A DNA stretch of 64,000 nt. It comes from Cirrosporium novae-zelandiae (lineage: Eukaryota). The notes below the pieces were generated by a model, which was not told the DNA's origin, made no database searches, and saw nothing but the letters and a program-made list of their open reading frames with translations. The stretch is taken from positions 310,001 to 374,000 of the forward strand of contig JAPETS010000019.1 in assembly GCA_026023565.1 (NCBI GenBank), given 5' to 3'. The position numbers were made by a program, and so were the translations under genes. Shown here one piece after another: positions 396 through 39,815 of the stretch. Every line of letters begins with the position of its first letter. The stretch's first letter is position 1.

Positions 396-1105
396 CTAAC
401 TGAAGATCTTTTCACTATACTTTCGTTGATAAGCTGTAGCAACACGATCCATTGTTGCAGAATCCGGTAGCACGTCGAACTTATTCGCATTCATCCTCCG
501 AATATAGTTGCTGTCCAGCGGTCCATTCTGCTTATCTCTCAGGTGTTTTAATATCGCAATAGCGTCATGCAGATCAAATTCGGCTTTTCGTCCTCTGTCT
601 GCAGAATATATCCTTCTTAACTTTCGTTCCAAAGCCCATTCAAGTGGCGCTGCAAGAACATGAAGGTTTGGCCCCTCCCAAAGGATAATATTTTGTTCCA
701 AGGCTTGCTCAAAAAGCTCCACTCTAGATGTCTTGGTGATGAATAATGCCAAATCTTCATTGATCCACTGATCATTGAACTGCAGCTTTCTTCCCACTTT
801 CTGTATTGCTTCATGAAGGGGTTCTTTGATATCATTGTCCTGTGCCCACTCGGGATCGAGAAGGTAATCGATATCGCCAGTAGCGTCGCGACTTTTGAGA
901 AAAGAAACCGCAAGAAAGCCACCAGCGGTAATGATTCTGATAGGTGAAAATGCGTAGAGAAAAGCATCCTTTCCTATTTCTATGTCAAGGGCTTCAAGAC
1001 CTAGGGCAAGAGGTGAGTGAGAGGAGACATTTGAGAAAGTTCACCATCTAACTCACCATTTTGAAAGTCCGCCGCATTGAGTAGCTCCTTGTTGTGGTGG
1101 GGCAT
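396..1105 (-). CDS. Nucleotidyltransferase-fold protein, AbiEii/MenT-like (about 217 aa, 2 exons: 1105-1057, 1000-396)
   Basis: ATG at 1105 and a GTGAGT...TAG intron (1056-1001) give a continuous frame MPHHNKELL...IITAGGFLAVSFLKSRDATGDIDYLLDPEW...WINEDL...ALERKLRRI...RKAEFDLHDAIAIL. The hGG, RxTxDhD, KL..R and DxxD motifs match the pol-beta/AbiEii-type NTase pattern. Confidence 0.8.
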
Positions 1106-1469
1106 CGCAAGCAGTGTTTTGGGTTGTCAAGTTGGATAAGTTAAGAGTTGTCGTATTAGAAGTATACTACGAATCATCATTATCATAATGCGTTATCATA
1201 ATACATGATGGAACACAACCACGTTGTTCAGTCGAGCTCTCATGGTTGCTAATGAACTGGTGAGGCGGGATGGTGGGGGAGAGGCCTAATATTTGCCATG
1301 CACGTGCCACGCCCTTAATTGCATCGGGGGTCTAGCTCTCCGCAGCATAAGTTACATTAAGTTCCACCGAGTTCACACAATATTGCAGTCTTCGTAGAAA
1401 GTATCATTCAACCTACCTAGTCACCTGGTTCTCCTTTGTCAATCTTAACAATAGATATTTTTCCATTCA

Positions 1470-2216
1470 ATGGCCCGTCGTCGTCCCAAAATCACTTGGT
1501 GGATGCGAATTCGTCGATTCATCTATCATTTCCATTCTCCCTTTCATTTGCGCTCGAGTATTATTCGATTAAGTCATCATCACAAACGACCATACCTCAC
1601 CCTTCTACGTCTCTTTATACCATTTCCATCTTGGTATTTTCCAGTCCCCGATCCTGTTGCCCTCCAAAATATTTTCGAAAACCCATCCTTACTTCGTTCT
1701 CGTTTGGGAGACATTGTCAATCTACGAACTATTCCTATATGGCGTGCGCGCGATACCCCCCTTCGCTCCCTCTACCGTCTTTATGAAATAATGGCATCAG
1801 GGCATTATGTCCTGATGGGGGCAGAAACAGAATATTTCTGGTATCAATCTCGGAAGCAGTGGGAATTACATTCAATTGAGGACCCTAAAGATCCAGATCC
1901 TGTGCGATATGCTATATTGGCTTGCTTAGTAGAAGAGCTGACCGTTGCCTTTAATTGGAGACTAAGTCTTGGTATGCGTCGAAACGGCAAACATTTCTAT
2001 CGTGAAAATGATGAAGATCCATATCCCCCATTTGTTTCCGAACAAGTGCCTAGCTGGACGAAATATGTTCCTCCAATCGATCCAAAGTTTTTGCTGGGCT
2101 TCCCTCCGGCACTAGTGGATACTAAAGGGAGACTAGTTCTTGAAGAAGGTGGACTCAATAAAATCTTTGCAAACCGAAATATCATAACAAATGTGGGCTG
2201 GCTCTATACCATTTGA
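1470..2216 (+). CDS. Intronless fungal hypothetical protein (248 aa), divergent partner of the NTase
   Basis: Long ORF with a protein-like core (DTPLRSLYRLYE...DPKDPDPVRYAILACLVEELTVAFNWRLSLGMRR...PSW...FANRNI) and an Arg-rich, acid-free N-terminus; starts 364 bp from the NTase ATG. Confidence 0.8.
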   Translation: MARRRPKITWWMRIRRFIYHFHSPFHLRSSIIRLSHHHKRPYLTLLRLFIPFPSWYFPVPDPVALQNIFENPSLLRSRLGDIVNLRTIPIWRARDTPLRSLYRLYEIMASGHYVLMGAETEYFWYQSRKQWELHSIEDPKDPDPVRYAILACLVEELTVAFNWRLSLGMRRNGKHFYRENDEDPYPPFVSEQVPSWTKYVPPIDPKFLLGFPPALVDTKGRLVLEEGGLNKIFANRNIITNVGWLYTI

Positions 2217-3769
2217 CTGATGCGCTTTGGTGTCCAGGACCTAATGAATACTTCATTTTGAACGTCTACATTTGTCTCATTCGGGTCAAGCCAGCCAAAA
2301 ATGAGGTCAAATGTTTTGAGGCGTATAATTCAAGGCGCATCAAACAATGACTATCCTCGGATTTATTGTTTGAGGTTTCGGAGCCGAAGCATTAGTATTT
2401 ATATTTCAACATGGACCCCTATGAAGTGTCGAGTGGAGCCTAGCGTAGCCATATATGGACAGGCAGCCACGCATTCTCTTGGAATTGCTACCTATTACTT
2501 TGGACGAAGACAGGTAAGCAAGCAGGTAGCCTTGTTCGCTCTTTCGTTGATTATATCTCAGTTGAGTTGATTATCAACATTAACGACTATATCCTCCCTA
2601 CCCAAAACCTTCATTTATTCCATTCTTCCATCCTTGAAAATACCAAAGACACCACAAAGAACCCAATGCATATATTCCGCAGACTATGCTCACCGAATGA
2701 GATGTTGAATTTTCAGTATTGGTGAAGTACACGCTCCTTTTCATAAGCCATTATATCAGAACCTCTTCATACAAGTCAAATTATGTTTGTTCCACAGGCC
2801 GTGGGATATATTTTTTGACTCTTAGATAGATGGATATCGGCAATATCTACCTAGCTAGTCATTCATCAGGCCACGATGGTTTCGATTTTAGTTTCAGACA
2901 TAGGTAAATATTTGTCCATATTCTTTGCATGGTGTTTGTGATACTCTGTAGACCTTTTTTTGCCTTTGTTATATTTCATCCAGCGGACCGTCTTTTCGTT
3001 AACTTCAAGTGGTTAAAGTGGCGAGAAGCTCCAAACTGGGACACGACAACAACCTCTAGTATTGCAGAAAAACGCTGAATGAAGTTTAACACCATGATGG
3101 CCATGATGGAAACTGTATGATCTCGTGCATAGATCCTTGATGGCTTGAAAGGAGAGATATAGCGCTGCGAAGGTTGGCCTTAAGTCCTTATGGGAGTGTA
3201 CTCGCATCCTAGAGGTCTTATAGATGGGACGAAACCTTCAGAGTTAGACCTAGTCATTAATTCCTCTAGTGCTAGTAAGCAAATAAAATACCTGATCCAA
3301 CATGCCAAGAAAAAATACTTTATTGTTTATTTACATGCGTTGTATAATCTATTACAGGAAGTCTTCGTCACTCACCAAAAACCCTACTACCTACTTAAAA
3401 TACTTATAACTTATCAACCACACATTTAATTCCAATATAACTTTGATCATTAGATAGTATATTTAATAGTTAATAGACCTATTTTTTATTTTGTAACATT
3501 TAATCAATTTTTTAAGTGTATTAGTTATCTAAGGTTTTAAAACCTTTTCTTTAATTCTGTAAGGGCAGCGCCTAATTTAGGCTGTGTGGTAGGATAACTA
3601 TCTAAGTAGTGGCTAACTAAGTTTAATACTATAAAGTTCGTATTCGAGACGCAGTAATGATGATAGCTTTAGAAGTGCCCCCTAAGGTAGATGCAAAAAT
3701 TGAACGCTGCTTTCGTACAGTACTAGCTACACCCACGGGTGGTGGTGGATATGAATATGCAGTACCAGC

Positions 3770-3823
3770 CAGGGCAGGGAATGGACCAGACCGACCAGAC
3801 CAAGGGGTTCGATCTGGTCGGTC
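3770..3823. mobile_element. Fragment of GACC-rich MITE-like repeat family
   Basis: CAGGGCAGGGAATGGACCAGACCGACCAGACC...TCTGGTCGGTC; same terminal and subterminal motifs as the copies at 29351, 36918, 37448, 39255 and 44834. Confidence 0.45.
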
Positions 3824-3929
3824 ACATAATGTAACAGGGGGTTGATTGGTCAGTTAATGATTATATAATATATAAATCAAGGTCTTGGTGAAAGCTTTGG
3901 TGTTGACTTTCCCTCTCTCCCTCCCTTGT

Positions 3930-4200
3930 CTTACCAAACAGCAGTTAGCTGGGCATATGGCCTCCAGTTCGAATAATATGCTCCATTCTAGTTAGAATAA
4001 CATGCCCTATTCCAGCTAGCTAGTTGGGTATGCGGCCTCCGACTGCTTATTATCTCTAATTTCTAAGCTCTTCTCAGTTATAATATGAAATCGTATACGC
4101 AAGGAATTCGAGGCCAAATTTGGGGTTTCGGGTACCTAGAATTAAAAATTTAGTCAAATGTTCAATAAAATACTCAGTAAAATACCTGGTAGAATGCTCA
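3930..4200 (+). repeat. Dispersed repeat (transposon relic); inverted homolog at about 39660-39815
   Basis: 4061-4200 aligns with the reverse complement of about 39666-39805, mostly with transition differences. Internal ~23-24 bp direct repeats at 3943-4040. Confidence 0.8.
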
Positions 4201-4878
4201 GAGTATGGTTGCTTGCAAGGGTTATCTTTATGTTCCGGGTTATTCCTTGCCAAGCCTAGTTGTATATATAGTATAACCACGGTTATCTAGATAAATTACC
4301 TACGTTAGAAGCTAAAAATGATGTATTGATCTAAATTAACATTAAGACTTGTTATATATTGAGTATATTACGAATATCTTATGGTTAAATGTGAAGATTC
4401 AATAATGCGTCGCTTATTCTCGAATATTTTCTAAATATGATTTAATCGCCTATGATTGGGGTTGTTTGCGGGTGGTCGTTTGGTACCGTTGGTGGGTTTG
4501 TGACTGGGCAAGGCATCCTAAACATTATGATATTACTAGCCATTTGCGAAATATATTTTTGTATTTTATTTTACAACGCTTGCCAATCCCCTTGGTTACA
4601 CTCAGGTCATAGAGACATTTCATTCGTTTTATTTCAATTCCCACGTCAATGGAAAGGTCGGAGCTGACTCAAGCCTTCCATTTCTATCTGCAGTCCTGTG
4701 TATCCATCCAGCCCAGACGTAACACACATCATCCATTGGATCCTTGAAATAATATATCATTCAGCTATCTCTTTAAACATGAAGCCTTCGCAGCAGCCTT
4801 GTTCCTGTGTGAGGCAGAACAATCAGAGCACTATATTAAAGGAAGAGTCTCATAACTATTTGCTTTCCAACCCAAAAC

Positions 4879-7815
4879 ATGGCTGCATCAAACAGCAATC
4901 GAATTAGTTCAACTATTGTTTCATATTCTTCTCTTCCTTCAGACAATGGTGCAGCCGAGGACAATGAATTACAAGATCTCGAACCGTCTATTTCCCAAAA
5001 TAATACAGAGGATACATATCCTCCAACAGCACAAAGCTATTCATCCTCCCGATTAAATCTTACAGCCAACAATCACGATGGCGAATCAAGCAATTTGGAT
5101 ATGGAGCAAGACTATTTCCTAGAACTCGATGGGTTCATAGTGTACGAAGAAGGTGGCCATTCTTTTACTTTGGTGCAGATTTGTTAATGTATTTCAGCTG
5201 GTACCAAACACCACAGATCGACCTCGAGCAACTTGACGATCGGAACGAGACTGCAAACCAAAGTCTTGACTCTGGCCGAACCTACACGCTGCTAGACCTG
5301 GAGCCTAGTCAATCATCGACGAGGGGTAGTGTAGAGCAGCCCCGGTTTTTTAAAAGTGATTGGTTAATACCATGGGTGCCGCAATTAGATCCAAACAGTC
5401 CAGAAGCAAATAAAATGAGGTCTTGGACTTCAAAACGGTCCAATGTCCTGATAGGAATGGCTTTACTCTCAACCACTGTTCTTGTTGTCAATCTCGTTGC
5501 CACTATAATGTTTAAAAAAACCGGGGATCCAGCCAACGATCTAGGAATGTTATACAGAGGCGACTGTATAACGGTTCGTCGATTAAGCATAGGAATTCAT
5601 GCTGCCATCAACGTTCTAAGTACTCTGCTCTTGAGTTCCTCAAATTTCTGCATGCAACTACTTTCAGCCCCCACACGGGCCGAGATTGACGAGTCACATC
5701 GAAAACATCAACCTCTCGACATTGGAGTGCCCAGTATTCGAAATCTTGCAGCTATTAGTTGGAAACAGAAAGCTGTTTGGGCTATCTTGGTGCTATCCTC
5801 TCTACCATTGCATTTTCTGTAAGCAGCACCGCTCGTGCTCTACTATTAGCGTATCTTACAATTCTCTAGATTCAATTCTGCAATCATCCCCACCCTCGCC
5901 ATCAATTCTTATGTTTACATTGCCGTGTCACCAGAGTTTCTCGATGAGGGCTCATGGAATACGTCCGCCACCGCGTCTACTTTGCTAAGTTTACCCTCTC
6001 CCTTGAATAATACCGCAGGGATGTTACAATCCTGGGACGATGCACCTTTAGATCTGCAAATGACGATTCATGAAATGCAAGTTGGGTTTAGCAACGATGG
6101 GGGTTTTGTCCATTTGGATAAGCTGACGTGCTTACTGGAGTACACAAATCTCTTTGGAAACCGTTCAGATGTGGTCATGGTCTCTAACACAGCACCTCCA
6201 GACAACAACTCGTTACTTACATATGGTTTGGCTAGAGACGCGACGTGGGATGAAGGCTTGACATTATGTTGGGATTCAAATAGCTTCGACTGTCTTAAAT
6301 TAGACCTATCTAATTTCCCAAGCGGAGAAGCAGGACGGGAGAAAGCAACAGCAAATTGGAATATGGCCGGATATAAGATCGATCATTGTCTTTCAGCCCA
6401 AAGGTCTACCGATGGACTTTGTAGCGTGGAATACTCCTTTTCCATTATGCTTGGTAAAGCATCCTTGGGATTTTTTCTTTCCCTCTTGATAAGTGCACCG
6501 AAACTGATCTATTTTAGTGGTCTGCATAAGCAATGCCCTAGTATGCTGCAGTATTTACTATACGATATATATCTTCTCGAATCTAACAAATCCACCTTTA
6601 TCCATATTAGGTGATGCCGTAGCTTCATTCCTGAGTCACCCCGATGCGACCACACAAAATATGAGTGCCATTGGAAAATACACGCCGTCGCGGGATCCCG
6701 ACTCGTGGCGAGATATTCAGCCGACCCGATGGGAACAACGCCGGTCGTTCTGGAAAAGCGCGGCTGGTGGGCGTCGGTGGTCCATTTGTTTAATATCGTA
6801 AGTTTCGATTAGAAACAAAATCTTTTTTTCTCGTGCTAAGTATAATATAGATGTGGGTTGATGTTCATTGCAGCCTTTACCGTATTGGTATGCGGTATTA
6901 GAAGTCTTCGTGGAACCGGCATCTATCCCAGCTTGAAGTCAATCCTGGATATGGGGTTTGGCGCTGTGAATTCTAGATCCTTCGCCAATAATATAGGACC
7001 TAAAAGTATGGTAAGTAATTAACCCCTCCACTCCCAGAAAACATCCTTTATAGTCTACCCACGCTCCTAAGCACCAACAAACTTCCCACACCTTATTTTA
7101 GGCATCCACGGTCCGGAGGCTGTATACCAGCGTACTCTTCGTAAACAGCTGGCAGTTATTTGTCTCCATCATCTACGTGAGCTGCAACACCGTTCTGACA
7201 TGCATGCTGGTGGCCGCCGAATGGGACACATTTGCAGAAAAATGGAAGACCCTGCGCGTTTCTGAACCCACAGGCCTCCGACGGTCGAGCTACTTTCTCT
7301 CCATGCCGTTGAAATTCGGATTACCATTCATGACATCGATGTCGCTGATACACTGGTCCATCTCCCAGAGCGTCTTTATTGTCAGTCTGAATCGGTTCTT
7401 CTCCAACGGCGTGGAGGATATGGAGAACCGCACCATCACGATCGGATACAGCGTCTACGCTATCATCGTATGTTAGTTAGCCTGTTTTTTTTATATATCT
7501 TCATACTCTTAAACTCTTTTTCTCCCTCTTTCACCAATCTTACAAACCCAAAAAATCACAGCAATCCTCATCGGCCTCGTAGTAGTCCTAGCACTGTGTT
7601 TCCTAGGCTTTAGACGCCACCGAAACAATCCCCCCTTCGATGCAACCAACAGCGCCGTAATCAGTGCGGCCTGTCATCCTCCGGCCGGCGACGCCCAGGC
7701 CCATCTATCTTGGGTGAGATGGGGTGCTGTTTCTTGCGGGGAGGATTTTGAACGGTGCTCGTTCACCACAGCCAGGGATGTCATGGCGCCAATACCTGGG
7801 AGGTTATATTTGTAG
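4879..7815 (+). CDS. Multi-exon DUF6536-like fungal membrane protein
   Basis: Motifs LYRGDC...INVLSTLLLSSSNFCMQLLSAPTRAEID...LDIGVPSIRNL...SSLPLH, LRVSEPTGLRRSSYFLSMP...IHWSISQSVF and C-terminal SAVISAACHP...VRWGAV...CSFT...PIPGRLYL* (TAG 7813-7815). Several GT-AG introns. Confidence 0.85.
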
Positions 7816-18474: not shown

Positions 18475-21400
18475 ATGGAGGCAGATTGGAACGAGGTAGG
18501 TAATATGAATTCTCGTAATTGTTTTCGTAGGATGTTTTGTCGAAAGTGGCATTAGGCATTAAGCTTGACATACCTCATCTCCTAGACAATTCTCTCATCT
18601 TTTCAATTTTCCTTCTCGACAAATATTCTCGTACTATGACAGGATGAATTTCCCAGAGTACCATGCAGCACTCAAAAGAAAAGAAGACGCTGAAGCGAAA
18701 TATCAAGCCAAGCTAAACCAGAAGACTAATCCTGTAAACTACAAACAGATTTGTCGTATAGTGGTCCCCCCTCCTGGTCATGGCGCCCTTCCAACAAATG
18801 CTACCACGATCGCCTTTGATACTCAACAGGAACTCCTTTGGGCCGGCAATGAATGGGTGAGTATTCTGTTGAATCCAAACAAGAGAAATATTGACATTCC
18901 TTAGGGACGCGTGACCTCATTCTGTGGCTCTGAGTTATCACGATATACTTCCGTCAAGGCTCATCCCGAGGGAGTCGTGCGACAATTTCTTTTTCACGAT
19001 TTGGGGGTTCTTTCAGTTTCTGCTAGTAGCGTTCATCTCACCTCTCGTCGAGGCTTGACACAATGGCATATCATCAGTAGAGACATGCAGGATTTGCGAT
19101 GCATGACCTTTCTTTCCCCTGCTCGCGATCAAATCCTCGTCGCTGGAGGTCAGCCAGAGATGTTTGTGGTTGATATTGAAAAGGGAGAAATTGTCGACAC
19201 CGTCCAAACTGCAGAGTTCTACACCTTACTGAGGTTCGATAAATATATCTGTGCAGCAACAACCACCGGTACTGTAAATTTTCTGGATCCCAAGACTTTC
19301 GATGTGGTCAAAACCTGGAAAGCACATGCGGCTGCTATCAACGACATGGACGCTCGGAATGGATACTTGGTCACCTGTGGTTACTCACCTCGGCAGATAG
19401 GAAGTTATATGTTTGACCCTATGGCTAACGTATACGATGTCAAAAAGCTCGTGCCGCTAGTTCCAATCCCATTTCCTGCAGGCGCGGCATTTGTTCGACT
19501 CCATCCGAAGATGCAGACGACTTGTATTGTTGCATCACAAGGCGGTCAGCTCCAGGTTGTGGATATCATGAATCCAAATACAAGTAACCTCAGGCAGGCT
19601 GACATTACGACCTATTTGCTATCTCTCGAACTTGCCCCCTCTGGAGAAGCTTTAGCTCTGGCTGATGGAGCATGCGCAATTCACCTCTGGGGTTCACCAT
19701 CAAAAATACACTTTGCAGAAGTAAGAAATCATATTGAATTCGCCGAGGACATTCTTCCTCCTGAACTAGAACGATCCATGGATCTGTGGACTGGAGACCT
19801 ACCGTTGAACTCGATAGGAATGCCATACTACTCCGAGCGACTCCTTTCTGCTTGGCCAGGCAATTTGATCTCTGAAGTAGGAAACCCACCGCCGGGGTTT
19901 GATCCCAAGTTTCTTGCAACTTTGATCCCAGGTGAATTGGGTCTCTGTGGTCCTTATTCTCGCAAAACGCCAAGATATCAAAAAGAAAATACCAGGTCTC
20001 CTATCCCGCATACGGCTTCCTTGGCCGCCCCAAAGTTTTTGAGCGAAAAGGCAAGAGAAAATGGATCCAAGCCTGTACGAAGAATGTCGGATGCAGTCGA
20101 AACTCTGTTGATTGCGCAACTCCAGCTCAATATTGACGGTCTCGAAAATAACAATGTTCCTCCAATATATCAAAGTGTTGAAATCAAATATAGCAAATTC
20201 GGTGTGGATGACTTTGACTTTGCTTTTTACAACAAAACGTCATTTTCTGGATTAGAAACGCATATTGCCAATTCTTATACTAATCCGCTCTTGCAACTAT
20301 TGAAATTCACGCCGCTATTCCGAAATCTTGCTTTGCATCATGCAGCGAGTACATGCCTACAAGAGACATGCCTACTCTGCGAAATGGGTTTCCTCTTCGA
20401 TATGTTGGAAAAAGCTAACGGTCAAAGCTGCCAGGCTACTAATCTCTTAAAAACCTTTAGTAGTTTTCAAGATGCATCACAGCTTGGACTCCTGGAAGAA
20501 AACCTACCAAGCACCTCCATTAGTCACTTGATCCAATCCGTTTGTCGTTTCTTCATGCAACGAATGAAGCTTGACTACGATAAAAATGTCGCCCAATCCT
20601 CTCAGTTCGAAAACACCTTCACCATCGAGGCAATGTCCAACCACCACTGCACTTACTGTCGCAAAGAACAACTTCGTGCTGATAGTAGCATGGTAACGGA
20701 TCTCATATATGCTGGCTTAGCTGAGGCTAACAATCGCCGCATCACGCCATCCTTTGCACAGATCCTCAAATCCACCCTCCAGCAGGAGATTCAATCGCGA
20801 GCATTTTGTGAAAATTGCAAAACCTACCGTATCATGACTCGTCAGCGGATGGTTCAAGCAATACCATCCGTCCTTATGCTTAACGCACATGTCACCAAAC
20901 CCACAGAGAAAGCCCTCTGGGCTCGACCGAACTGGTTGCCTCAACAAATTGGCGTCATCCTTACTAGTGGTCAAGTCTATGTTGTGGAAGGGGAAGATAT
21001 CGAAAGAAGCTTTGAAGAAAGCATTCAAAACATGGAAATATATGACCTTGTTGGTGTTGTTGTTGATGTCAACGGCGGAGATCATCAACGTCCTCATCTT
21101 GTTTCACTTGTCGACGTAGCCATAGCTTCGGAAGACCATGCCGCGTCGTCGCAGTTTCATCTCTTTAACGACTTTCTCGTCCGACCTATTCCTTCCATCA
21201 AAGATGCCCTCGACTTCACACCTCCCTGGAAAACTCCCTGCATTTTGACCTACCAAGTGCGATCCGCTCGACATGCTCTTGATCATAGCTGGAAAGATAA
21301 TCTTGATACTACGATGCTTTATTACGAGTGGAGCATGAACAATAATGCACAACCATGTCCTGAATGTCGAGTCCTAAACCCAGAGGTTGAAGCACCCCAT

Positions 21401-22192
21401 GAGAACTTCGAGGCGGCTATCGATACCGAATTTGTTACAGTAGAACGTGCAGAAATTGATGTCAGACCTGACGGATCTCAAGAAGTGATTCGGCCCAAAC
21501 GACAAGGTCTCGCTCGTGTTTCTGTTCTCAGGGGAGCCAAAGGTCCCGAAACGGGAACGCCATTCATAGATGACTACATAGCGATGCACGAGCCAATTGT
21601 CGACTATGTAACAGAATACTCGGGCATCAAGCCTGGAGATTTGGATGTGCACACCTCATCCCATAATCTTGTACCCCTAAAGATTGCATACAAGAAACTC
21701 TGGCTCCTCTTAAATATGGGCTGCATCTTTATTGGTCACGGTCTCAGTTCCGATTTCAGGCAAATTAATATACATGTTCCGCCTAACCAGTTTATCGACA
21801 CACAGCGGCTCTATCACATTCCAGCCAAAGCAAGAAAACTAAGCCTGAGGTTTTGCGCATGGTCTGTTCTACGTGAACATGTGCAGGAAGGGGGTAGAGA
21901 AGAAGGACACGACAGTATCGAGGACGCACGCACGGCGCTACGTTTGTGGAGGAAGTTTGAAGAAGTCAAAGCGAAGGGGGAAGGTGAAGTGGAGAAGATG
22001 CTAGAAGAAGTATACAGGGAAGGAGTGGTGCTGGGGTTCAAGCCGCCTCCATCAGGCGTGATCAGTGGAAGGATTGGCATTGAGTGTGGGAATGGAAGTA
22101 GGCCTGTTACTCCAAGCCGGGCTATACCTATTAGATCGGAGAGCGAGGGGAAGAGTGTGGATTTATTAACTGGGAGCCCGAGGCAGATATAA
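18475..22192 (+). CDS. PAN2: PAN2-PAN3 deadenylase catalytic subunit (exons about 18475-18495, 18749-18856, 18905-22192)
   Basis: MEADWNE start, WD40 region, UCH-like domain ([18 protein letters not shown]) and DEDD exonuclease (AIDTEFV...[10 protein letters not shown]...GHDSIEDA). Confidence 0.97.
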
Positions 22193-23211: not shown

Positions 23212-24616
23212 TCATCGTATCCTAAATATCTCAAGAAAGTTATCCCAAAATCCCAAATCGTATGAATTGTGAACTTCATCCAACGACCTCACTTTAATCC
23301 ACACAGGGTCCCTATCATCATCCTCATCATAACCATCTTCTCCATCTTGACCGTCCTTCAACCTCGCCCTCAACCTCGCCTCCCTCCCACGGCCAAACTC
23401 AGGCGCCCTCCCATCCATCGTCCTCACCAAGATCTGATCCACCACCAACGGCCACTCAACCCTAGGTTCGAGATTGAAATCGCGGTAAGCTCTAGGTCCA
23501 AACACGGCAGAGCTCTTCGCGCGGAAGACCACATGGTCCTTGATGTCGTCGCGCCAGTCGGCCCATTTTCCGCTTTCGTTGGTGGTCATGCCGGCCCAGA
23601 TTAGGTAGGTGTGGTAGAGGAGGAAGCCGGCTGCGAGGGGCAAGGTCATGGCGCTTAGGAGGGTTATAGCACCGATGCGGATGTCGTTTGCGACTGTGTC
23701 GGCTAGGAGATCAAGGTAGACGGGCCAGGAGAGGGTTGATGACCAGGGAGGAGTTGAATTGGTTTTATTTTTTGGTGCCATGGCGGCGAGTTTGGTGGAG
23801 AGGATGGAGAAGCCTAGGGTTGCGCCGTAGAGGAGGAGGACGGAAAGGGAAAAGAGTAGGCTGATGAAGAAGCCGTAGTTACCCCGGCCGATGCAGTTGC
23901 GCACCCAGATGCAGTGGTGGTCGTGTCTGGCGATGCAGGCTTTGCAGATCGAGCAGTGTTTGGAACGTGCTGGTTTTAGTAGGTTGCACGTGCGGCATAT
24001 GTGGTTCGGGTAGAAGAGCGTGTGGTCGTAGGGATAGTGTCGCATCTGCGCGAAGTGGTTCTGGGGTGTGATCATTGAGGAGGTCGAGGTTGCACAGGCG
24101 TAAATCAGGTAGTAGGGGGTTAGTGCTACGATCGGAATGAGGATGTGGTTGGTTGGGCCCACCAGCGACCATGCGGGGGGGATGAAGAGGCATTCCGAGA
24201 TTAGGAGGAGGCCGACGAAGAAGATCTGCAATGGGTGTGAGGAGGTGGAGATCTAGAAGTGGGGATGGGGATGGGAAAAGAGGGTTCCTTACGAGTATTA
24301 TGGGGTGGTTTTCATGCATGAGGTAGTTTCTAACCCGTGAGAGAGAAAGGGTTACTTTGCCGCCCGTGTAGTGCACATCTACTCTGTGGGCAGCTCTTGG
24401 AATGGTCCCAAGCAGAAACCGATGTAGCCATCCTATTGGTGTTTTCCTGTCCAGTCCAGTTAGTTAGCTTAGAGATATACGGTAAGGGGGGGGGGGTTAT
24501 TGTGAAAGATAGAAGAGGCATACCTACCTAAAAGCGGGGAGGCGACCAAACAGTGCAACGAAAGTTGCAAAGGAGATGATGGCAATAATTATTAGAACTT
24601 TCTTTAAAGGGTCCAT
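23212..24616 (-). CDS. SWF1: DHHC palmitoyltransferase Swf1, 3 exons
   Basis: N-terminus MDPLKKVLII...FVALFGRLPAFR/KTPIGWLHR; CRTCNLLKPARSKHCSICKACIARHDHHCIWVRNCIG; GMTTNE; NSYDLGFWDNF. Confidence 0.93.
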
Positions 24617-25064: not shown

Positions 25065-27450
25065 ATGGCTAACTTTCAAGCTGTCTACGGTCCTGACTCA
25101 GGCATCAAGGGCAATCTTTTTGAAAGTAAAGTCTTCTGGCTTTCTTACAATGTTCCATCGCGAAAGTATTACAAAGATATTATCAAGGTGCGGGAATCCA
25201 TGTCACATAATAGATCCCTGCAGCTAATCCCCACTGATTAGGTCAATGGAGGAGAAACGGTGGAACTGGAGCATGATGCGGATATCAAGATTGTGGATCA
25301 TTTGAAGGGAGTCTCTGGGTCTGACACGTTTGTACCAATTACTTCTATTGGATTTAGTCCAAGATTAAAAGAATGTACTCACTCTTCTGCAGATATTCTT
25401 ACAAGTATATCGAGGATTCATACAACCGTAAAACATTACAAAACATAGATGAATATGCCATCCCCTCTAAATCTAACACTCGTAACCCTGTCGCACCCAC
25501 ACAAAAAACCTCGAGGACCACCCGGACTCCTTTCACGGCCGCCGATGATGAAATTCTCCTGAATTGGGTGAAGGCTCATGGCACTAGAAATAATGCTAGA
25601 GGAAACATTATATTTCAAACTCTGGCTGATCAGGTATTTCATGTTGCTCGAGAGATTAAACACACGGAACTTGGGCTGAATATTAAAGTATCCAAGGCAT
25701 ACATATCAATCATGGAGGGATAGATATGTCAAAAGGTTTGCCGATAAAGACATTTCTAGTCTGCCAGTAAACAACCAGCCAAACACTCCTTCTCTCGAGA
25801 ACGATGGTGACATAGGCAATGTTCCTTCACCTGTTCCGAGATCCACTCGGAGGACAATTAATGTAGAGCAGAAAACCCCAGAGTTTTCCGTCAAGGACTT
25901 TCAAGAATTATTGAAGATGGCTCATGATATTTTGAATGTGAACCCCGCAGACGCAGATAAAGCCTGGGGAACTTTCGCTAACGACGTGAGCATTCTCTAC
26001 GCTTTTTGAAATGCTATATCTAGATAAGACTGAATATAGCTCTCACTTCCAAAAGCTAAAATGTTGGTAGTGGCCCAATCATACGGCAGAAGAATGGAGG
26101 ACGTATTTTGAAAAAGAAGTCCTACCAATCTATGAACAAGTTATTAAATCGTCAAAAAAAGCCGCGGAAGAGGCCGACAACGACGATGAGGAAGATGATG
26201 ATACTCTTCAGCAGGAATCAAAGCGACATAAAAACCAGGAGATCTCCAACTCAGGCCACTCATCTAGGAAAATAAGATCACGTCAATCTTCCATCACAGA
26301 TAAGAAATTAGGGAGGCTTGAAGAACAAGCGGAGATTCTTAAAGTACCACTACCGAAAATGAAATCATCGAAACTAAACGTGGGCAAACATTCGAGACGA
26401 GGAAAGAGTCCAGAATTTATACCGGCTGAACCCACCCTGCCAGTCAGGTCATCCTCAAAAAGGCCACGCGATTTGGGGTCCAAGCATAAAAGCAAGAAAA
26501 TTCCTGTATCTCCGGACCTTGGAAGTTCAGGGGGGGACAGTTCACTTTTCATACCCAATAGCGAGAGCTATGGCGAAGACAATGATGATGCATCACCGAC
26601 ACCAGAAGTGAAAAGGTTAAAGGTTGAGCCTCCGCCGAAGGGTAATCAGAAATTTTCTCAACCACCGAAAGTTGTTCTCAGTCCTGAAGATAGATCAGAT
26701 GAAGGTTTGGTCACCCCAAGTCATCGCAATACCATGAAGAGGCAATTGGAAATACCAGCAACGCCTTCCCCTCAACATAAAAGGCAACCTGAAAAGAAGA
26801 AAACATCAATAAATAAGTACTATCCATTTAGGAATGATCCTGAGGATGGTTCTGAAGATGAATCACCCCAAGATTCTGAAACTCACGAGATATCGCCGCC
26901 ACAGTTTAAACCGCCACGGGGCATAGAACTTGAAGGTTCAAATAAAAGCAGATCTCTAGAACATCCACGTCCAGCTAAAAGAGCCCAAGACACGCAAGAT
27001 ATGTTCGACGAGCCAACACAGCTGCCAGATTTGAACCTTCCGGAACCACCAGGAGGCTGGGAATTACCACCCCCTCCTTCCGATAACAACCAATTCTCCA
27101 ATGATCAAGACGAAATGGGCATGGAAAGCTCCCAAGAAACCGCAAAATTTGAGGAATGGATGAGTGCACACCTCTCTGCCGGCCACCAGCAGGATGAGAT
27201 CGTTTATGCACTCGAGCGCACCACCATGCAAACGGGCTATGCTGACCTGGTTCTCGAATACCAGGGATGTGGAAAGGGTTTACCAATGAACATACCAGGT
27301 ATATGGACGGAAGAGGATGACATGCTCTTGCACAGCAAGAATGCTCATGCTATCGAAGAAATGTATGACAAGCACGGAAAAGAAGCCACCGACCAGAGGA
27401 TGGAATTTTTGGGGAATTTGGCTGCCGTGCAAGACGGTGCGGTGTGCTGA
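25065..27450 (+). CDS. RAP1: Telomeric protein Rap1 (BRCT-Myb-RCT), multi-exon
   Basis: BRCT-like start (LFESKVFWLSYNVPSR...NGG...SYKYIEDS), Myb domain (RTPFTAADDEILLNWV...GNIIFQTL...YPRHTYQSWRDRYVK) and RCT C-terminus (ALERTTM...PMNIPGIWTEEDD...KHG...RMEFL). Confidence 0.88.
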
Positions 27451-29602: not shown

Positions 29603-31794
29603 TTAAAATTCCACATAACCATCTTTATGCTCTATAGGAGGAGGAGGAGGAGGCTCGAGCCTCCGTTGTGTTGTTGTTGCTGAAAGGATCGTATTATTTA
29701 TCCTCTCCGCTCGTAGCAACTGCATCATAATTTCCCGCTGTTGGTCCTGTGGTGGTGGTGATTCGAGCGAATAATCCGAAGAAGAGGAAGAAGCGTCAAC
29801 GACACCAACGAAAATCTCGTCATCCGGGGAGACGGATTCGCGAATGACGGTGCTGATGTCCGGGCTGGACATGCAAAGCTTAATAACCGCTCTGCCGTTG
29901 TTGTTGGCGTTGGCTCCCCCTTCTTCGCTTGCGAGTCCGCAGAGCATGTTGGAGACGTAGCGGAGTTCGTCTTGATGTTCGGTTTGTTGCTCCAACAGGT
30001 TGACCGTATCGATCACGCAAAAGAGGGTGGTGGGAGTCCCAGTTAGGCTTCGGACAAGAGTACCAAAGAGCTCACAGAGGGTCTGGAGGTCTTGTTCTGA
30101 AATGCTAGATAAGTCACTTCGAGTCAAAACAGAGCAGAGACCGAATTGGCGCGCGGCGAGAAGCTGGGCGATGAGGCTGCGTAGCATTCCCCGCAGACCA
30201 ACGGATCTGTGCCTTTCACAGAAGTATTGGAGGTAAATAACATGGTCGATGCCACTTAGTCCGAGGTGCATGGAGGTGACGAGGAGGGAGAACGGCGAGA
30301 CTTTGGAGCAGATCTTGCTATGTATAAGAAGAGCTTTGGATTCGCTTGATTGAAACCATTTTCTAAATCGGGGATTGCTTAGGACTTGTTGGACGACACG
30401 TTGGTTGGGAAGGTCAATGGCTTGAGCTATGTCCTGATAGAATTGGCTGTCGACTACGACCTCGTTGAGATCAATTCCTATTGATTGCATCAGCTCGGCT
30501 TGAGATATGGGCGCTTCAGCAACCTGATTTGGCGTTCGTGCGCGATAGTTCTCTATAACTCGGGCTTGAGCATCTTTCGTCTGTTAGGATAGGTTCCCCT
30601 AGAGGAAGGAGCAAAATCCCTCCACTTACCAATGATTGTTCTGTACATCTGGTTCCCTAGTTAAAGTCAAATAGCTGTTTTTGAAGGTCTATAGGCCTAG
30701 GATCAATAACTGCTACCCACATTGTGACTGCTGGACAAGAAGTCGAAGATCTTGAGAAAAAGAATTCAACACATTCTCCATTCCGTTCGGGCCAGTAAGG
30801 GCTGATTGAATTATCCCCACCCCCTCGCTCATTTCCGTGACAAGGCCACGTTGGATCATATTAACTCGGGATTTCAAAATTCGCGAGAGATCCTGGACAG
30901 CAGCGAACCTCTCTCTGAGATGTTTGCCATACTGGCCTTGCTGGAGTAACGCCTTGAACTTCGGTCCTAGAACGTGTCAGCAAGAGAAACCGGTCAATGT
31001 TCCAAGACATACTGATGGCGCTTTCCCTCAGCCATGTGATGCTGCCTTCGATTGCAAATACCAAGGCGGCGTAGAAATCCGTGGCCGTCTCATTCAATCT
31101 TGCATCCTTGGGATGAAGTTGTCGAAATTCGTACGTTACACATAGCGTTTCTGGAACACAAGAAAGTTCATTTAAAATGGTCTCTCGGAGGTCGCTTTTA
31201 GCTTTCACTGCCTATGGTTGGATTAGCTAAAGGCTTTTAGTGGCAGCAATGTGTGAAGAACACGGACTCCGAGTATTAACTTAAGTCCTCCGCAAACGAA
31301 AGATGTGTACTCATTGTTTGGGAGCAGGCCCATCCATGGATCAACTGCTCCGTCGACGGTAACATCGCCCAAGTTTCTCATTCCCCTGGTAAATATGCCC
31401 CTCCATCCCTGTGCTCTAGAATTGTAGTCCTTTATTGCCCATGCGGCTTCGTTCAACACATCATTCCACGTGTGGCCTGCTTCGATTTTGAAGTCCTGTA
31501 GTTCTTTGTTGGTACCATATTCACGTAGCGTTGATAGGTATTTGCGGATCTCATCGTAACAACTCGAAGTCCTGTTTCGTGCGTTTTTTACTGACCTTTT
31601 TGTGTCAAAGAAAAGAATTCCATTTCTAGCGCAAAAGGCTCAATTTAAACTTACTTGGAAGAAGGTTCATTAAGCACAACCACTTTATCGTTCAACGGGT
31701 TTATGATCATTTCGTTCATGCTGTCTGTTAACAGTGCATTGGGATGGGTCACATAGTCTTGGATTACTTTTTCAATCGCTGGTCGTATTGCCAT
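29603..31794 (-). CDS. Truncated NACHT/STAND-like protein with N-terminal helical domain and degenerate P-loop (about 636 aa; exons 31794-31655, 31595-31268, 31211-31013, 30966-30721, 30656-30630, 30573-29603)
   Basis: Spliced frame is stop-free (1911 nt). N-terminal HTWNDV...LLPNNEYTSFVCGGLKLIL helical domain; NACHT-like NPRFRKWFQSSESKALLIH, YLQYFCERH, MLRSLIAQLL, LCELFGTLV, LFCVIDTVNLLE and IKLCMSSP, but no GxxGxGK[ST]. Confidence 0.8.
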
Positions 31795-32597
31795 TTTTCG
31801 CACTCGTAGATCAAAGTTTCTGAAATGCACAAAGGAGACCACAGGAGATACGCTCTGTGAATTTGATGCGCTGTAGATACTATAACCGAGGTTCTAAGAG
31901 TCAAGACCTGCCGTAGGATCGAGAGGGCATCGGTATCAAAGCTAATGTAACTGTCCGAAAATAAAGGCAGCTGAGGATAGCCTCACAGAAGAACACTGAT
32001 ACCAGTGTGGCCAATCACTAGCGCTCTTGGGAATCGAACCCAGCCTAGTATTTATGGCATCCGACACCCACAACTGCAAAATACTAGGGTGCGAGTATTT
32101 AGGAGAGATGGTGGGGTCATGCATAAGACCCATGTAAGATTCGGGTACTCTGAGAATATCAGCGCTCGCACCCACATTTTCATATGAAGGTCCAGAAAAC
32201 TTGATTTCTAACTATAAATTACTCGCAGCTAGAATTGAGTTGCTCTTATAACTGGTTGCTTTTTTGCATCGCCCCAACTATATTGTTAGCTGAGTATTTT
32301 CAATGATTAAAAATTCATTTAAAAGAGTCCGGAAAGGCTGCAGCCTGACGAAATTGCATCACCGTCGTGGTATTGTAGGCTTACTGGGATTCGCTTTCGG
32401 AGCTTGGCATCTCAATATCGTCACCGTAAATAGATAGAGGCTGAAATGTTGCAGATTCCTATTTCTTTTATAGGAAACCTGTCTCCGTAGTATTAATAAA
32501 GGTCGATTGTGTCAACTCGTAAAAATCATCAATTATCAATGTTCTTCAATAGATTTAAGTTTCTTCTTACCTGAATTGAATCCATTCGTCTCCTATA

Positions 32598-35500: not shown

Positions 35501-36290
35501 TTTCCATACTGCCGTCGCCCTAGCAGAGCACGAAGCTGACGAAGCAAGTGCCAATGGACAACCGAGGGGCCCCCCAACCCTAAAACCAGGTCACTTCACC
35601 AAAGTCGTCGAAGCAATCATGACTTTTGACGAATATCTTCAATCAGTACAAGGCTTCTCGGACGAAGAACTGGCGATCTGGAACACAAATAGGAATGATA
35701 AATTCCAGCGGAGTCATAGGACTGCACCAATCGGCACTTATTGGCACGAACAAACGCAAGAGCCCCATACTCGGTTTCATGCGGGTCTTCCATCTTTCCA
35801 GACACCCACCAAGACCCCGCCAACGCAACATACATCAAATTTCCAGAATTTCAATAGGACAGAGCAGCATGGAGCTCCATACCAACAGCCTGGCATGACG
35901 TCCTATCCAAATTACCAACAAGATTCACTGGGAACGCCAAGCCCACTTCCACATAGTCAACAAAGAAGTGTCAATAGTCCAGTGCCTTCAGTAGGATTTC
36001 CAGGAAACACGGCTTATCCATCGCCCCCAATAGCTAGCCACCACGCGAGGAATAGTGGCATGCCTTTCCCGACAAGAATGCTTAATGCGGATGCCAGCCA
36101 GAGCGGTTGGGATGTCCAGTCTTCTTCAACAGAACCAAAACCTCCAGCACAGGGGCAACCACATAGCTTGGCAACTAACATTGAGTATGATCATCTGCAA
36201 AATTCGTATGAAAGTATGCCCAACCAGCCAATGAGCAGGCATGGATTACCAAATCCAGCCTCAAATCCACCGAGCTACACCGGTGCGTAG
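32598..36290 (+). CDS. Fungal AAA+ ATPase with DUF7025-like N-terminal region (about 1136 aa; exons 32598-34476, 34528-34713, 34770-34829, 34882-34929, 34985-35140, 35209-36290)
   Basis: IAFQDLWYLFKPGDEV; GKGKGLIILLHGAPGVGKTATAE (Walker A); ILLLDEADVFL (Walker B); VFLRVLEYYTGVLFLTTNRVGSLDEAFKSRIH; WNGRQIRNAF lid; P/Q/S-rich tail. Spliced frame is intact (3411 nt). Confidence 0.93.
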
Positions 36291-39519: not shown

Positions 39520-39815
39520 CACTGAGGCCCTGACTGAGCTTGCAACTGAAGCTCGTACTGAGCTGCAACTGAGGCTTGCATCGAGACTTCGACTGAGGCT
39601 TCCACTGAGGCCCTGACCGAACTTATGACTGAGCTTCTAATTGAGGCTTCTATTGAGGTTCGCATTAACCATTCTACTAGGTATTTTACTAAGTATTTTA
39701 TTAAAGATTTGACTAAATTTTTAATTCTAGGTACCCAATACCCCAAATCTGGCCTCGAATTCTTTGCGTATACGATTTTATATTATAGTTAGGAAGAGCT
39801 TAGGAATTGAGGACA
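39520..39815 (-). repeat. ~12-bp minisatellite (ACTGAG core) running into a dispersed repeat shared with 4050-4200
   Basis: Periodic ACTGAG units; the reverse complement contains GAGCTTCAGTTGCAAGCTCAGTCAG, matching 37885-37909. The distal part is homologous to 4061-4200. Confidence 0.8.

What the first reader, a model, noticed from the sequence alone, without database searches (positions are those of the whole stretch)
396..2216. Divergent AbiEii/MenT-like nucleotidyltransferase plus helical partner: candidate eukaryotic toxin-antitoxin pair
Seen: after splicing one intron, the minus-strand gene has all four motifs of AbiEii/MenT-type NTases (AGG; RDATGDID; ERKLRR; KAEFDLHD). It faces a 248-aa intronless gene 364 bp away, next to RIP-decayed repeats. 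Established: bacterial NTases of this type are TA toxins (MenT adds nucleotides to tRNA 3' ends) encoded next to an antitoxin. Inference: the partner's pattern DP...RYAILACLVEEL...PSW...F.NRNI recalls, from memory only, the small helical proteins encoded beside bacterial DUF6036-like NTases. The pair could be a poison-antidote, incompatibility or antiviral unit.
Basis: partly seen in the sequence, partly recalled or inferred. Interest (0 to 1): 0.8.

Follow-up and report, generated by a model that had tools for sequence, protein, structure and literature searches.

The report
Fungal MenT-like nucleotidyltransferase with linked partner
A fungal enzyme gene related to bacterial toxin-antitoxin toxins always sits next to one gene of unknown fold across many moulds, which suggests the two proteins work as a unit whose role is still unknown.

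Summary
A two-exon minus-strand gene (396-1105, 56-nt intron) encodes a 217-aa protein. A 248-aa intronless gene starts 364 bp away on the other strand.

The first protein belongs to Pfam DUF7582. Its motifs, profile matches and predicted fold place it in the DUF1814 (AbiEii/MenT/AbiGII) nucleotidyltransferase superfamily. All catalytic residues, and a Thr at the toxins' phospho-acceptor position, are invariant in 65 homologues.

The partner has no Pfam, solved-structure or prokaryotic relative, although its predicted model is confident.

The main result is linkage. Both genes are present in 8 of 9 metagenome contigs, and locus tags are consecutive in 14 of 16 named fungal genomes. The pair occurs head-to-head, tail-to-tail or in tandem, with different flanking genes. 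Paralogous clades match in both protein trees.

So this is a real two-gene module of filamentous ascomycetes. Whether it acts as poison and antidote is untested. An acidic enzyme with a basic partner fits a catalytic subunit plus adaptor about as well.

A 2014 paper states that fungal DUF1814 homologues lack linked antitoxins. My searches found no description of this pair.

The parts
396..1000 (-). Exon 2 of the NTase gene (residues 17-217, with the last two bases of codon 17) plus the TAG stop at 398-396
   Evidence: Translation. 100% identical to P0003. Pfam DUF7582 at 34.3 bits, cutoff 27.
1001..1056 (-). 56-nt GT..AG intron of the NTase gene
   Evidence: Sequence. The junction residues G17-L18 are conserved in homologues, and the database protein P0003 uses the same splice.
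1057..1105 (-). Exon 1 of the NTase gene (residues 1-16 and the first base of codon 17)
918..926 (-). Motif I, A42-G43-G44 (the hG[GS] motif)
   Evidence: G43 and G44 are invariant in 65 sequences. The motif aligns to GGF of AbiGII and of a bacterial AbiEii-domain protein.
867..890 (-). Motif II region, R54-D-A-T57-G-D59-I-D61: the two catalytic Asp residues, the conserved Arg, and Thr at the phospho-acceptor position of DUF1814 toxins
   Evidence: R54, T57, D59 and D61 are invariant. TglT has R76, S78 (phosphorylated), D80 and D82 (PMC7205606, passages).
612..629 (-). Motif III, E141-R-K143-L-R145-R146
   Evidence: E141, K143 and R145 are invariant. The stretch aligns to the K-L motif of AbiGII and of a bacterial AbiEii protein.
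564..587 (-). Motif IV, K155-A-E-F-D159-L-H-D162 (DxxD)
   Evidence: D159 and D162 are invariant and K155 is nearly invariant. The motif is defined in PMC3985639 (passages).
1106..1469 (.). 364-bp region between the two divergent start codons, presumably holding both promoters
   Evidence: Coordinates. No promoter analysis was done.
1470..2216 (+). Partner gene: intronless, 248 aa. It has an Arg-rich N-terminal arm of about 59 residues and a mainly helical body without a known fold.
   Evidence: Found 218 homologues and 507 representative clusters. Model pLDDT 91.2. No fold match. pI 9.84.

Best explanation
The two genes form one functional module that is inherited together in filamentous ascomycetes.

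Shown:
- Gene A encodes a nucleotidyltransferase of the DUF1814 (AbiEii/MenT/AbiGII) superfamily with a complete active site.
- Gene B encodes a fungus-specific protein that stays next to gene A through rearrangements and gene duplications.

Inferred:
- The enzyme is active and adds nucleotides to a macromolecular acceptor. By analogy with MenT and AbiEii this is most likely an RNA 3' end such as the tRNA CCA end, which would slow or stop translation.
- The partner binds the enzyme and keeps it off or controls it. Its basic N-terminal arm may sit against the acidic enzyme. It could also trigger self-phosphorylation of the invariant Thr57, as the antitoxins of MenT1, MenT3 and AbiEii do at the equivalent Ser/Thr.
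- Tight linkage is kept because separating enzyme from regulator would be harmful. That is a poison-antidote type of dependence.
- The cellular role would then be regulated growth arrest or cell death, for example in stress, virus defence or non-self recognition.
For: NTase identity:
- Pfam DUF7582 at 34.3 bits against a cutoff of 27; 61 of 65 family members match it.
- The family profile hits the AbiGII chain 9hlo_B at E 6.4e-4, across the motif I/II and III/IV stretches.
- hhalign of the family against a bacterial protein gives probability 82%, E 1.1e-5 over 138 columns spanning all motifs. That protein scores 35.4 bits on Pfam AbiEii (cutoff 22.5).
- The model has pLDDT 94.4.
- Best structural matches in the wide search are P. 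brasiliensis NTase-like antigen 5uvd (Z 8.8, 184 residues aligned), MenT1 (Z 8.4, 164), ANT(2'') (7.4), TglT (7.2), MenT4 (6.7) and an H. pylori putative NTase, 4ok0 (6.5).
- In the second look, the top 11 rows are all MenT1 or MenT3/TglT chains.
- The catalytic residues and T57 are invariant. Ser occupies the T57 position in two distant Sordariomycete-type loci.

Linkage:
- tblastn finds the partner beside the NTase in 8 of 9 metagenome loci. The ninth contig is only 1,020 bp.
- The arrangement is tail-to-tail in 7 loci, tandem in 1 and head-to-head in the window. This needs at least two rearrangements with adjacency kept.
- By my hand count, 16 named genomes have positional locus tags in both top-120 lists. 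Tags are consecutive in 14, three apart in 1 and not near in 1.
- Nine further unnamed pairs share an identical longest-contig length.
- Flanking genes differ between loci.
- Trees of 26 linked pairs recover the same six clades in both proteins. Two clades that each contain Aspergillus and Penicillium are monophyletic in both trees (SH-aLRT 98/99 and 100/100), so the pair duplicated and persisted as a unit.

Charge: NTase median pI 5.2 and partner median pI 9.6.

Precedent: DUF1814 toxins are neutralised by partner-induced phosphorylation of the Ser/Thr two residues before the first catalytic Asp (PMC7205606, passages; bioRxiv 10.64898/2026.01.19.700257, passages).
Against: - No activity, toxicity, binding or rescue has been measured.
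- The partner is unrelated to any known antitoxin and has about 20 invariant, mostly polar or aromatic residues. That is more typical of an enzyme or a ligand-binding protein than of a simple inhibitor.
- Both proteins are strongly conserved (mean column identity 48% and 51%). Their clades largely follow taxonomy, which is unlike fast-evolving selfish elements.
- The charge pattern is the reverse of many bacterial toxin-antitoxin pairs.
- The residue at the position I take to correspond to the third carboxylate strand is an invariant Asn (N97), not Asp/Glu. I could not confirm this by residue-level superposition.
- Structural Z scores of 7-9 are middling by the tool's own notes.
- One named genome (Emmonsia crescens, EMCG tags) shows an NTase and two partners that are not near each other. 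So does Phialemonium thermophilum, where NTase and partner lie on contigs of different length. Other paralogues may be involved in both.
Confidence: 0.5

Rival explanations
1. The pair is a non-toxic two-subunit enzyme. The acidic NTase is the catalytic subunit. The basic partner is an RNA-binding or substrate-selecting adaptor, as Air proteins are for Trf4 in TRAMP (a comparison recalled from memory). The genes stay together for co-expression and balanced dosage, and there is no poison-antidote relation.
For: - The partner has an Arg-rich N-terminal arm: 12 K/R and no D/E in residues 1-59 of the window protein, and a median of 12.5 K/R in the first 55 residues of 66 homologues. The NTase is acidic.
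- The partner has many invariant polar residues.
- Both proteins are strongly conserved and their clades are largely taxonomy-congruent.
- Some database records call partner homologues 'DNA-binding protein'. These are automatic names.
Against: - Co-expression alone does not explain why adjacency survives changes between head-to-head, tail-to-tail and tandem arrangements.
- The family has several paralogous pairs per genome.
- No Fusarium, Neurospora or Trichoderma entries appear among the 65 Sordariomycete-type hits. That looks accessory rather than housekeeping, but the search is word-indexed, so absence is not proven.
- The nearest characterised relatives of the enzyme are toxins.
Confidence: 0.3
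2. The polarity is reversed. The partner is the harmful or effector protein, and the NTase is its modifying antidote.
For: - The linkage and co-diversification evidence does not say which protein is the effector.
- The partner has many invariant polar residues that could form an active site.
- The NTase is acidic, as many antitoxins are.
Against: - The NTase resembles the DUF1814 toxin branch (MenT, TglT, AbiGII) rather than minimal MNT antitoxins.
- It keeps the Thr at the toxins' self-phosphorylation site.
- The fold searches listed no HEPN-like or other effector fold for the partner.
Confidence: 0.1
3. The enzyme nucleotidylylates a small molecule, as ANT(2'') or LnuA do, for example in self-protection or detoxification. 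The partner is an accessory protein of that pathway.
For: ANT(2'') (Z 7.4) and LnuA (Z 5.7) are among the structural matches. ANT(2'')-Ia is counted in the DUF1814 superfamily by bioRxiv 10.64898/2026.01.19.700257 (passage).
Against: - No biosynthetic or transporter genes are consistently nearby; flanks differ in every locus inspected.
- The motif III/IV arrangement and the best sequence-profile hits point to AbiGII/AbiEii-type proteins.
Confidence: 0.07
4. The two genes are merely neighbours with no functional connection.
For: There is no direct evidence of interaction. One named genome shows unlinked family members.
Against: - Adjacency holds in 8 of 9 DNA loci and 15 of 16 named genomes, across four ascomycete classes.
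- Orientation and flanks change while adjacency stays.
- Paralogue clades match in both trees.
Confidence: 0.03

Closest known systems
MenT1 / MenT3 (TglT) / MenT4 toxins of the MenAT systems, and AbiEii/AbiGII (DUF1814 nucleotidyltransferase toxins)
   Same: - Two-lobed NTase fold (Z 8.4, 7.2 and 6.7).
- GG motif, DxD motif, conserved Lys motif and DxxD motif, with Arg and Ser/Thr just before the catalytic Asp pair.
- Always encoded beside one cognate gene.
   Different: - Eukaryotic, with an intron and a separate promoter for each gene rather than an operon.
- Below the Pfam AbiEii threshold: only 2 of 65 members match at E up to 1, best 0.034.
- The partner is not a COG5340/COG4861 regulator and has no prokaryotic relative.
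- The position I take for the third carboxylate holds an invariant Asn.
- Toxicity is unknown.
Pb27, the antigenic nucleotidyltransferase-like protein of Paracoccidioides brasiliensis (PDB 5uvd)
   Same: A fungal protein of similar size and the best structural match (Z 8.8, 184 of 218 residues aligned). It is placed in the DUF1814 superfamily by bioRxiv 10.64898/2026.01.19.700257 (passage).
   Different: Only 14% identity in the structural alignment. The family profile does not find it in the PDB sequence search at E up to 10. I did not examine whether Pb27 has a linked partner.
Pfam DUF7582 (PF24483)
   Same: The window protein and 61 of 65 homologues match above or near threshold. This is the family it belongs to.
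   Different: The Pfam entry is a domain of unknown function. The full-text search for 'DUF7582' found 0 papers. The entry name says nothing about a partner.
Small bacterial AbiEii/DUF6036 nucleotidyltransferases (for example loci L010 and L012)
   Same: These are the closest prokaryotic sequences found: near-identical motif I/II strings and an alignment through motif IV.
   Different: They are shorter (149-189 aa). No homologue of the fungal partner lies beside them. Their neighbours are ordinary housekeeping genes.

Membership tests
DUF1814 / AbiEii-MenT nucleotidyltransferase superfamily | Motif I, hG[GS] | tested here: met
   A42-G43-G44; both Gly are invariant in 65 sequences.
DUF1814 / AbiEii-MenT nucleotidyltransferase superfamily | Motif II, DhD, about 15 residues after motif I and preceded by a conserved Arg | tested here: met
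   D59-I-D61, 14 residues after G44. R54 is invariant. The definition comes from PMC3985639 and PMC7205606 (passages). The Arg sits one residue further from the Ser/Thr than in TglT and AbiGII.
DUF1814 / AbiEii-MenT nucleotidyltransferase superfamily | Motif III with a catalytic Lys (K..R helix) | tested here: met
   E141, K143 and R145 are invariant and align to the K-L motif of AbiGII and of a bacterial AbiEii protein. The Lys-to-Arg spacing differs from AbiEii K173/R180.
DUF1814 / AbiEii-MenT nucleotidyltransferase superfamily | Motif IV, (+)DxxD | tested here: met
   D159-L-H-D162 is invariant. The basic residue K155 lies four residues upstream rather than adjacent.
DUF1814 / AbiEii-MenT nucleotidyltransferase superfamily | Third acidic residue, motif 2a (h[DE]h) | tested here: inconclusive
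   The likely equivalent strand reads I96-N97-E98, with N97 invariant and position 98 variable. I had no residue-level superposition. The TglT E146Q mutant keeps reduced toxicity (PMC7205606).
DUF1814 / AbiEii-MenT nucleotidyltransferase superfamily | Ser/Thr phospho-acceptor two residues before the first catalytic Asp | tested here: met
   T57 is invariant, and Ser occupies this position in L008 and L009. Phosphorylation itself was not tested.
DUF1814 / AbiEii-MenT nucleotidyltransferase superfamily | Fold: NTase core plus a helical C-terminal lobe, as in MenT/TglT/JHP933 | tested here: met
   MenT1 Z 8.4 (164 aligned), TglT 7.2, MenT4 6.7 and the H. pylori NTase 4ok0 6.5. The top 11 rows of the second look are MenT1/MenT3 chains. 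Foldseek alone gave only weak pol-beta-type NTase hits, best E 0.048.
Pfam AbiEii (PF08843) | Score above the curated gathering threshold | tested here: not met
   The window protein gives no hit at E up to 10. Only 2 of 65 family members match at E up to 1, best 0.034. The PADLOC AbiEii model matched 1 of 4 NTases scanned, at E 0.02.
Pfam DUF7582 (PF24483) | Score above the curated gathering threshold | tested here: met
   34.3 bits against a cutoff of 27; 61 of 65 members match.
AbiE / MenAT toxin-antitoxin system (type IV/VII) | Toxin gene adjacent to one cognate gene | tested here: met
   8 of 9 DNA loci; 14 of 16 named genomes with consecutive tags and 1 three apart.
AbiE / MenAT toxin-antitoxin system (type IV/VII) | Antitoxin of the COG5340/COG4861 type (or MenA1-like) encoded upstream in one operon | tested here: not met
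   The partner matches no Pfam, NCBIfam or PADLOC model and no credible PDB sequence. The genes are separate eukaryotic transcription units in variable orientation.
AbiE / MenAT toxin-antitoxin system (type IV/VII) | Toxin inhibits growth and the partner neutralises it | not testable with these tools
   Needs expression experiments.
Pb27-like fungal NTase-like antigens | Detectable sequence relationship to Pb27 (5uvd) | tested here: inconclusive
   Fold match Z 8.8 at 14% identity. The profile search of PDB sequences at E up to 10 did not list 5uvd.

The most novel reading that the evidence does not exclude
This is a widespread, chromosomally fixed, toxin-antidote-like module of eukaryotes. 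It would be a descendant of bacterial DUF1814 tRNA-modifying toxins that filamentous ascomycetes have kept for hundreds of millions of years, together with a newly evolved, fungus-specific controller of unknown fold. The controller would switch the enzyme off, possibly through self-phosphorylation of Thr57. Fungi would use the module for regulated translation arrest or cell death in virus defence, non-self recognition or stress.
Probability: 0.3. Interest if true: 0.85.

Novelty: new variant of a known kind. Interest (0 to 1): 0.65.

Why it matters
- DUF1814 nucleotidyltransferases are known as bacterial toxins that block translation by extending tRNA 3' ends.
- The founding paper on AbiE states that the fungal homologues are not linked to putative antitoxins (PMC3985639, passage).
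- Recent fungal genome papers list 'AbiEii-like toxins' without any function (PMC13468701 and PMC13448219, passages).
- The data here show that one fungal branch does have an obligate neighbour, of a fold with no detectable relative. The pair has been kept together through rearrangements and duplications.
- This gives a concrete, cheap experiment on whether toxin-antitoxin logic exists in eukaryotic chromosomes. It also gives a first functional handle on two families of unknown function found in many medically and industrially important moulds.

Tried and rejected
- Complex prediction of NTase with partner returned 'no answer'. It used ESMFold2 without my alignments and scored 0.00, so it says nothing for or against binding.
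- The window's own genome is not held, so I could not count paralogues or orphans in this organism.
- The sequencing-run search listed no RNA holder, so there is no expression or splice evidence.
- The ESM Atlas look-ups for the partner gave only weak (0.83) unnamed ascomycete clusters, or nothing.
- Partner fold searches found nothing credible. Foldseek's best was E 4.4. The VIA-align wide search's best was Z 4.3, to Wolbachia CidA, with 0 chains at Z 5 or above. The profile against PDB sequences gave only ribosomal protein RPL26 at E 0.016, which I regard as chance.
- I looked for enzyme-partner fusions. None of the 18 longer partner-family proteins scanned carries an NTase or any other credible Pfam domain; one 1,027-aa repeat protein gave only low-complexity hits.
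- PADLOC and NCBIfam gave nothing useful for either protein.
- One literature search combining AbiEii with fungal genus names under min_terms 2 returned only unrelated mycology papers.
- The earlier-findings look-up by sequence returned nothing.
- I considered a mitochondrial presequence for the partner's Arg-rich N-terminus. I think it less likely because that stretch holds family-invariant residues (R28, L34, P51, W55) and is modelled as helices. No targeting predictor was available.
Full report
**1. What is in the sequence**

On the minus strand an ATG at 1105 opens a short exon (1105-1057). A 56-nt GT..AG intron follows (1056-1001), then a 200-codon exon (998-399 in frame) that ends at TAG 398-396. 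The spliced 217-aa product is identical to a database protein, P0003. That record is labelled as a hypothetical protein of a Cirrosporium novae-zelandiae metagenome-assembled genome, tag M1834_002605.

On the plus strand, 364 bp from that ATG, an uninterrupted 248-codon ORF runs from 1470 to 2216. The database model of this second gene (M1834_002606, P0123, 204 aa) removes residues 15-58 as an intron. Homologues of 246-260 aa keep that stretch, and it holds the family-invariant residues R28, L34, P51 and W55. The intronless reading of the first-stage reader is therefore the better one.

**2. The enzyme**

- The protein matches Pfam DUF7582 (34.3 bits, cutoff 27). So do 61 of 65 aligned homologues.
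- Pfam AbiEii itself is not reached: 2 of 65 members match at E up to 1, best 0.034.
- A profile of the 65 sequences finds one solved-structure sequence, the abortive-infection protein AbiGII (9hlo_B), at E 6.4e-4. The aligned stretches cover motifs I/II and III/IV.
- A pattern scan of prokaryotic genomes found three remote relatives. One (L010) scores 35.4 bits on Pfam AbiEii. Another (L012) scores 28.8 bits on DUF6036 and 24.1 bits on AbiEii.
- hhalign of the fungal family against the L010 protein gives probability 82% and E 1.1e-5 over 138 columns, from the GG motif to the DxxD motif.
- The AlphaFold model is confident (pLDDT 94.4, pTM 0.89).
- Foldseek alone gives only weak hits, all to pol-beta-type nucleotidyltransferases (best E 0.048).
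- The Foldseek-independent search puts DUF1814 proteins on top: P. brasiliensis NTase-like antigen 5uvd (Z 8.8, 184 aligned), MenT1 (8.4, 164), ANT(2'') (7.4), TglT (7.2), MenT4 (6.7) and an H. pylori putative NTase, 4ok0 (6.5).
- The top 11 rows of the second look are MenT1 or MenT3/TglT chains. By the tool's own notes these Z values are middling. They cover most of the protein, though, and agree with the sequence evidence.

In the 65-sequence alignment G43, G44, R54, T57, D59, D61, E141, K143, R145, D159 and D162 are invariant. These correspond to motifs I-IV as defined for AbiEii (PMC3985639, passages) and TglT (PMC7205606, passages).

T57 lies two residues before the first catalytic Asp. 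That is exactly where TglT carries the phosphorylated Ser78 that switches the toxin off. A 2026 preprint reports the same antitoxin-induced self-phosphorylation for AbiEii and lists Pb27, ANT(2'')-Ia and JHP933 in the DUF1814 superfamily (bioRxiv 10.64898/2026.01.19.700257, passages only). Two distant loci have Ser at this position.

One difference: the strand where I expect the third acidic residue carries an invariant Asn (N97). I could not check this by superposition.

**3. The partner**

- It has 218 homologues at E up to 0.001 in the word-indexed search.
- It has 507 representative clusters at E up to 0.001 in the exhaustive profile search, of which 343 are at E up to 1e-10.
- I looked up the names of 20 representatives. 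Every named record is fungal (Phialemonium, Chaetomium, Claviceps, Alyxoria, Ophiostoma, Aureobasidium, Sodiomyces), apart from one record filed under Quercus suber.
- The prokaryotic genome scan found no relative.
- There is no Pfam, NCBIfam or PADLOC match and no credible solved-structure match by sequence.
- The model is confident (pLDDT 91.2) and mainly helical, with a long ordered non-regular C-terminal part. Its best fold matches are at noise level: Foldseek E 4.4, VIA-align Z 4.3, and no chain at Z 5 or above.
- About 20 positions are invariant, many of them polar or aromatic.
- The first 59 residues hold 12 Lys/Arg and no Asp/Glu. Median pI is 9.6 for 66 partners against 5.2 for 65 NTases.

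The three bacterial loci I read have no such neighbour either.

**4. Linkage, the main result**

- I fetched nine metagenome contigs that encode an NTase relative at 37-61% identity. tblastn finds the partner directly beside it in eight. The ninth contig is only 1,020 bp long.
- The arrangement is tail-to-tail in seven loci (L001, L002, L003, L005, L006, L008, L009). It is tandem on one strand in L007 and head-to-head in the window. Getting from one arrangement to the others needs at least two rearrangements, yet adjacency is kept.
- Flanking genes differ between loci. The window has a DUF6536 gene. L003 has an aldo-keto reductase and an amidase. L006 has an APH-like kinase. L007 has a sugar transporter.
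- In the two top-120 homologue lists I counted by hand 16 genomes with positional locus tags in both. Tags are consecutive in 14, three apart in 1 (Emydomyces) and not near in 1 (Emmonsia crescens).
- Four further named genomes and seven unnamed pairs share the same longest-contig length. Two more unnamed pairs do so in the Sordariomycete-type group.
- One apparent exception is Phialemonium, where NTase and partner sit on contigs of different length.
- By the source names and closest relatives, linked pairs span Eurotiomycetes, Leotiomycetes (Botrytis, Sclerotinia, Stromatinia), Sordariomycete-type contigs (L008, L009) and an Aureobasidium-like Dothideomycete contig (L007).

**5. Co-diversification**

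I picked 26 linked pairs from the lists and left out all other hits. Quick maximum-likelihood trees (LG+G4, SH-aLRT) of the two proteins recover the same six clades.

Two clades each contain both Aspergillus and Penicillium species. They are monophyletic in both trees, with support 98 and 99 for the NTase and 100 and 100 for the partner.

Single genomes or species hold NTases of different clades. A. alliaceus has ETB97_010267 and ETB97_004749. Microsporum canis has 002986 and 000743. Paecilomyces variotii has clade II and clade III members. So the pair was duplicated and then maintained as a unit.

Pairwise tree distances correlate (r 0.78; 0 of 5,000 permutations reached it). This partly reflects shared species history and is not independent proof.

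**6. Interpretation**

It is safe to say that this is a real, ancient, two-gene module. Its enzyme is an intact DUF1814-type nucleotidyltransferase.

The poison-antidote reading is attractive for four reasons:
- All characterised close relatives are toxins controlled by a neighbour.
- The phospho-acceptor position is invariant.
- Adjacency is kept through rearrangements, which is what co-dependence predicts.
- The family is multi-copy. It also seems patchy, with no Fusarium, Neurospora or Trichoderma among the 65 hits, although absence is not proven by that search.

Against it stand the strong sequence conservation, the largely taxonomy-congruent clades, and a partner that looks more like an enzyme or nucleic-acid binder than a simple inhibitor. 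The acidic-enzyme and basic-partner pattern also counts against it. A catalytic-subunit-plus-adaptor model, or a reversed polarity as in MntA-HepT (recalled, not read here), cannot be excluded.

I put 0.5 on 'enzyme plus dedicated controlling partner with harmful uncoupling'. I put 0.3 on a non-toxic two-subunit enzyme. The rest goes to the minor rivals.

**7. Novelty**

- The NTase family is catalogued (DUF7582), and automatic names already call some members 'AbiEii toxin'.
- Dy et al. 2014 noted fungal DUF1814 homologues and stated that they are not linked to putative antitoxins (PMC3985639, passage).
- Two 2026 genome papers mention AbiEii-like proteins in fungi without a function (passages). 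One 2025 proteomics paper lists such a protein in Paracoccidioides vesicles (passage).
- Full-text searches found no description of the partner or of the pair. 'DUF7582' gave 0 papers. AbiEii + fungi gave 32, and I read passages of four: three fungal papers and PMC7205606. toxin-antitoxin + DUF1814 + eukaryot gave 8. toxin-antitoxin + filamentous fungi + nucleotidyltransferase gave 3.
- Subscription-only literature and supplements were not searched.

I rate it a new variant of a known kind, with interest 0.65.

Noticed in passing
window 1470-2216: The database gene model for the partner (P0123, 204 aa) splices out residues 15-58. That stretch is conserved in homologues and holds the invariant residues R28, L34, P51 and W55. 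The annotated intron is probably wrong.
   Followed up: yes
window 3001-4500; 4047-4196 and 39670-39819: An AT-rich stretch (36-41% GC) with RIP-like dinucleotide indices lies about 0.8 kb downstream of the partner gene. One 150-bp inverted repeat copy lies elsewhere in the window, 88% identical.
   Followed up: partly
L005 2670-3776 and L006 4007-5113: In these two near-identical metagenome loci the NTase ORF runs on for about 165 residues past the usual C-terminus, into a Tyr/Gly/Lys/Glu-rich low-complexity tail. The gap to the partner gene is over 1 kb from the end of the NTase match, or about 760 bp from the ORF end.
   Followed up: no
L012 2974-3423 (+) and 3420-3752 (-): In Ekhidna lutea a 149-aa DUF6036/AbiEii-type NTase converges on a gene for a tRNA-binding-domain protein (PF01588) and overlaps it by 4 bp. 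This is suggestive because MenT toxins act on tRNA, but it may be chance.
   Followed up: no
L011 2922-3488: The bacterial NTase relative in this Binatia MAG is split over two overlapping reading frames (2938-3249 and 2922-3488). This is either a frameshift or an assembly error.
   Followed up: no
window 29606-30583 (-), 32580-34481 (+), 35193-36287 (+): About 27-34 kb from the pair lie ORFs with an NPHP3_N (NLR-type P-loop) domain and with DUF7025 plus a fungal AAA+ lid domain. Such domains are often seen in fungal non-self-recognition genes. They are not adjacent to the pair.
   Followed up: no
window 5004-5819 (+): The next recognisable gene downstream of the partner carries DUF6536 (157.7 bits). 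It is not found next to the pair in the other loci inspected.
   Followed up: partly
window 18905-22189, 23215-24252, 26071-27447, 50685-51740: Ordinary housekeeping genes (PAN2-like UCH, DHHC palmitoyltransferase, Rap1 C-terminal domain, ribophorin I) show that the window is normal gene-dense fungal chromosome.
   Followed up: no
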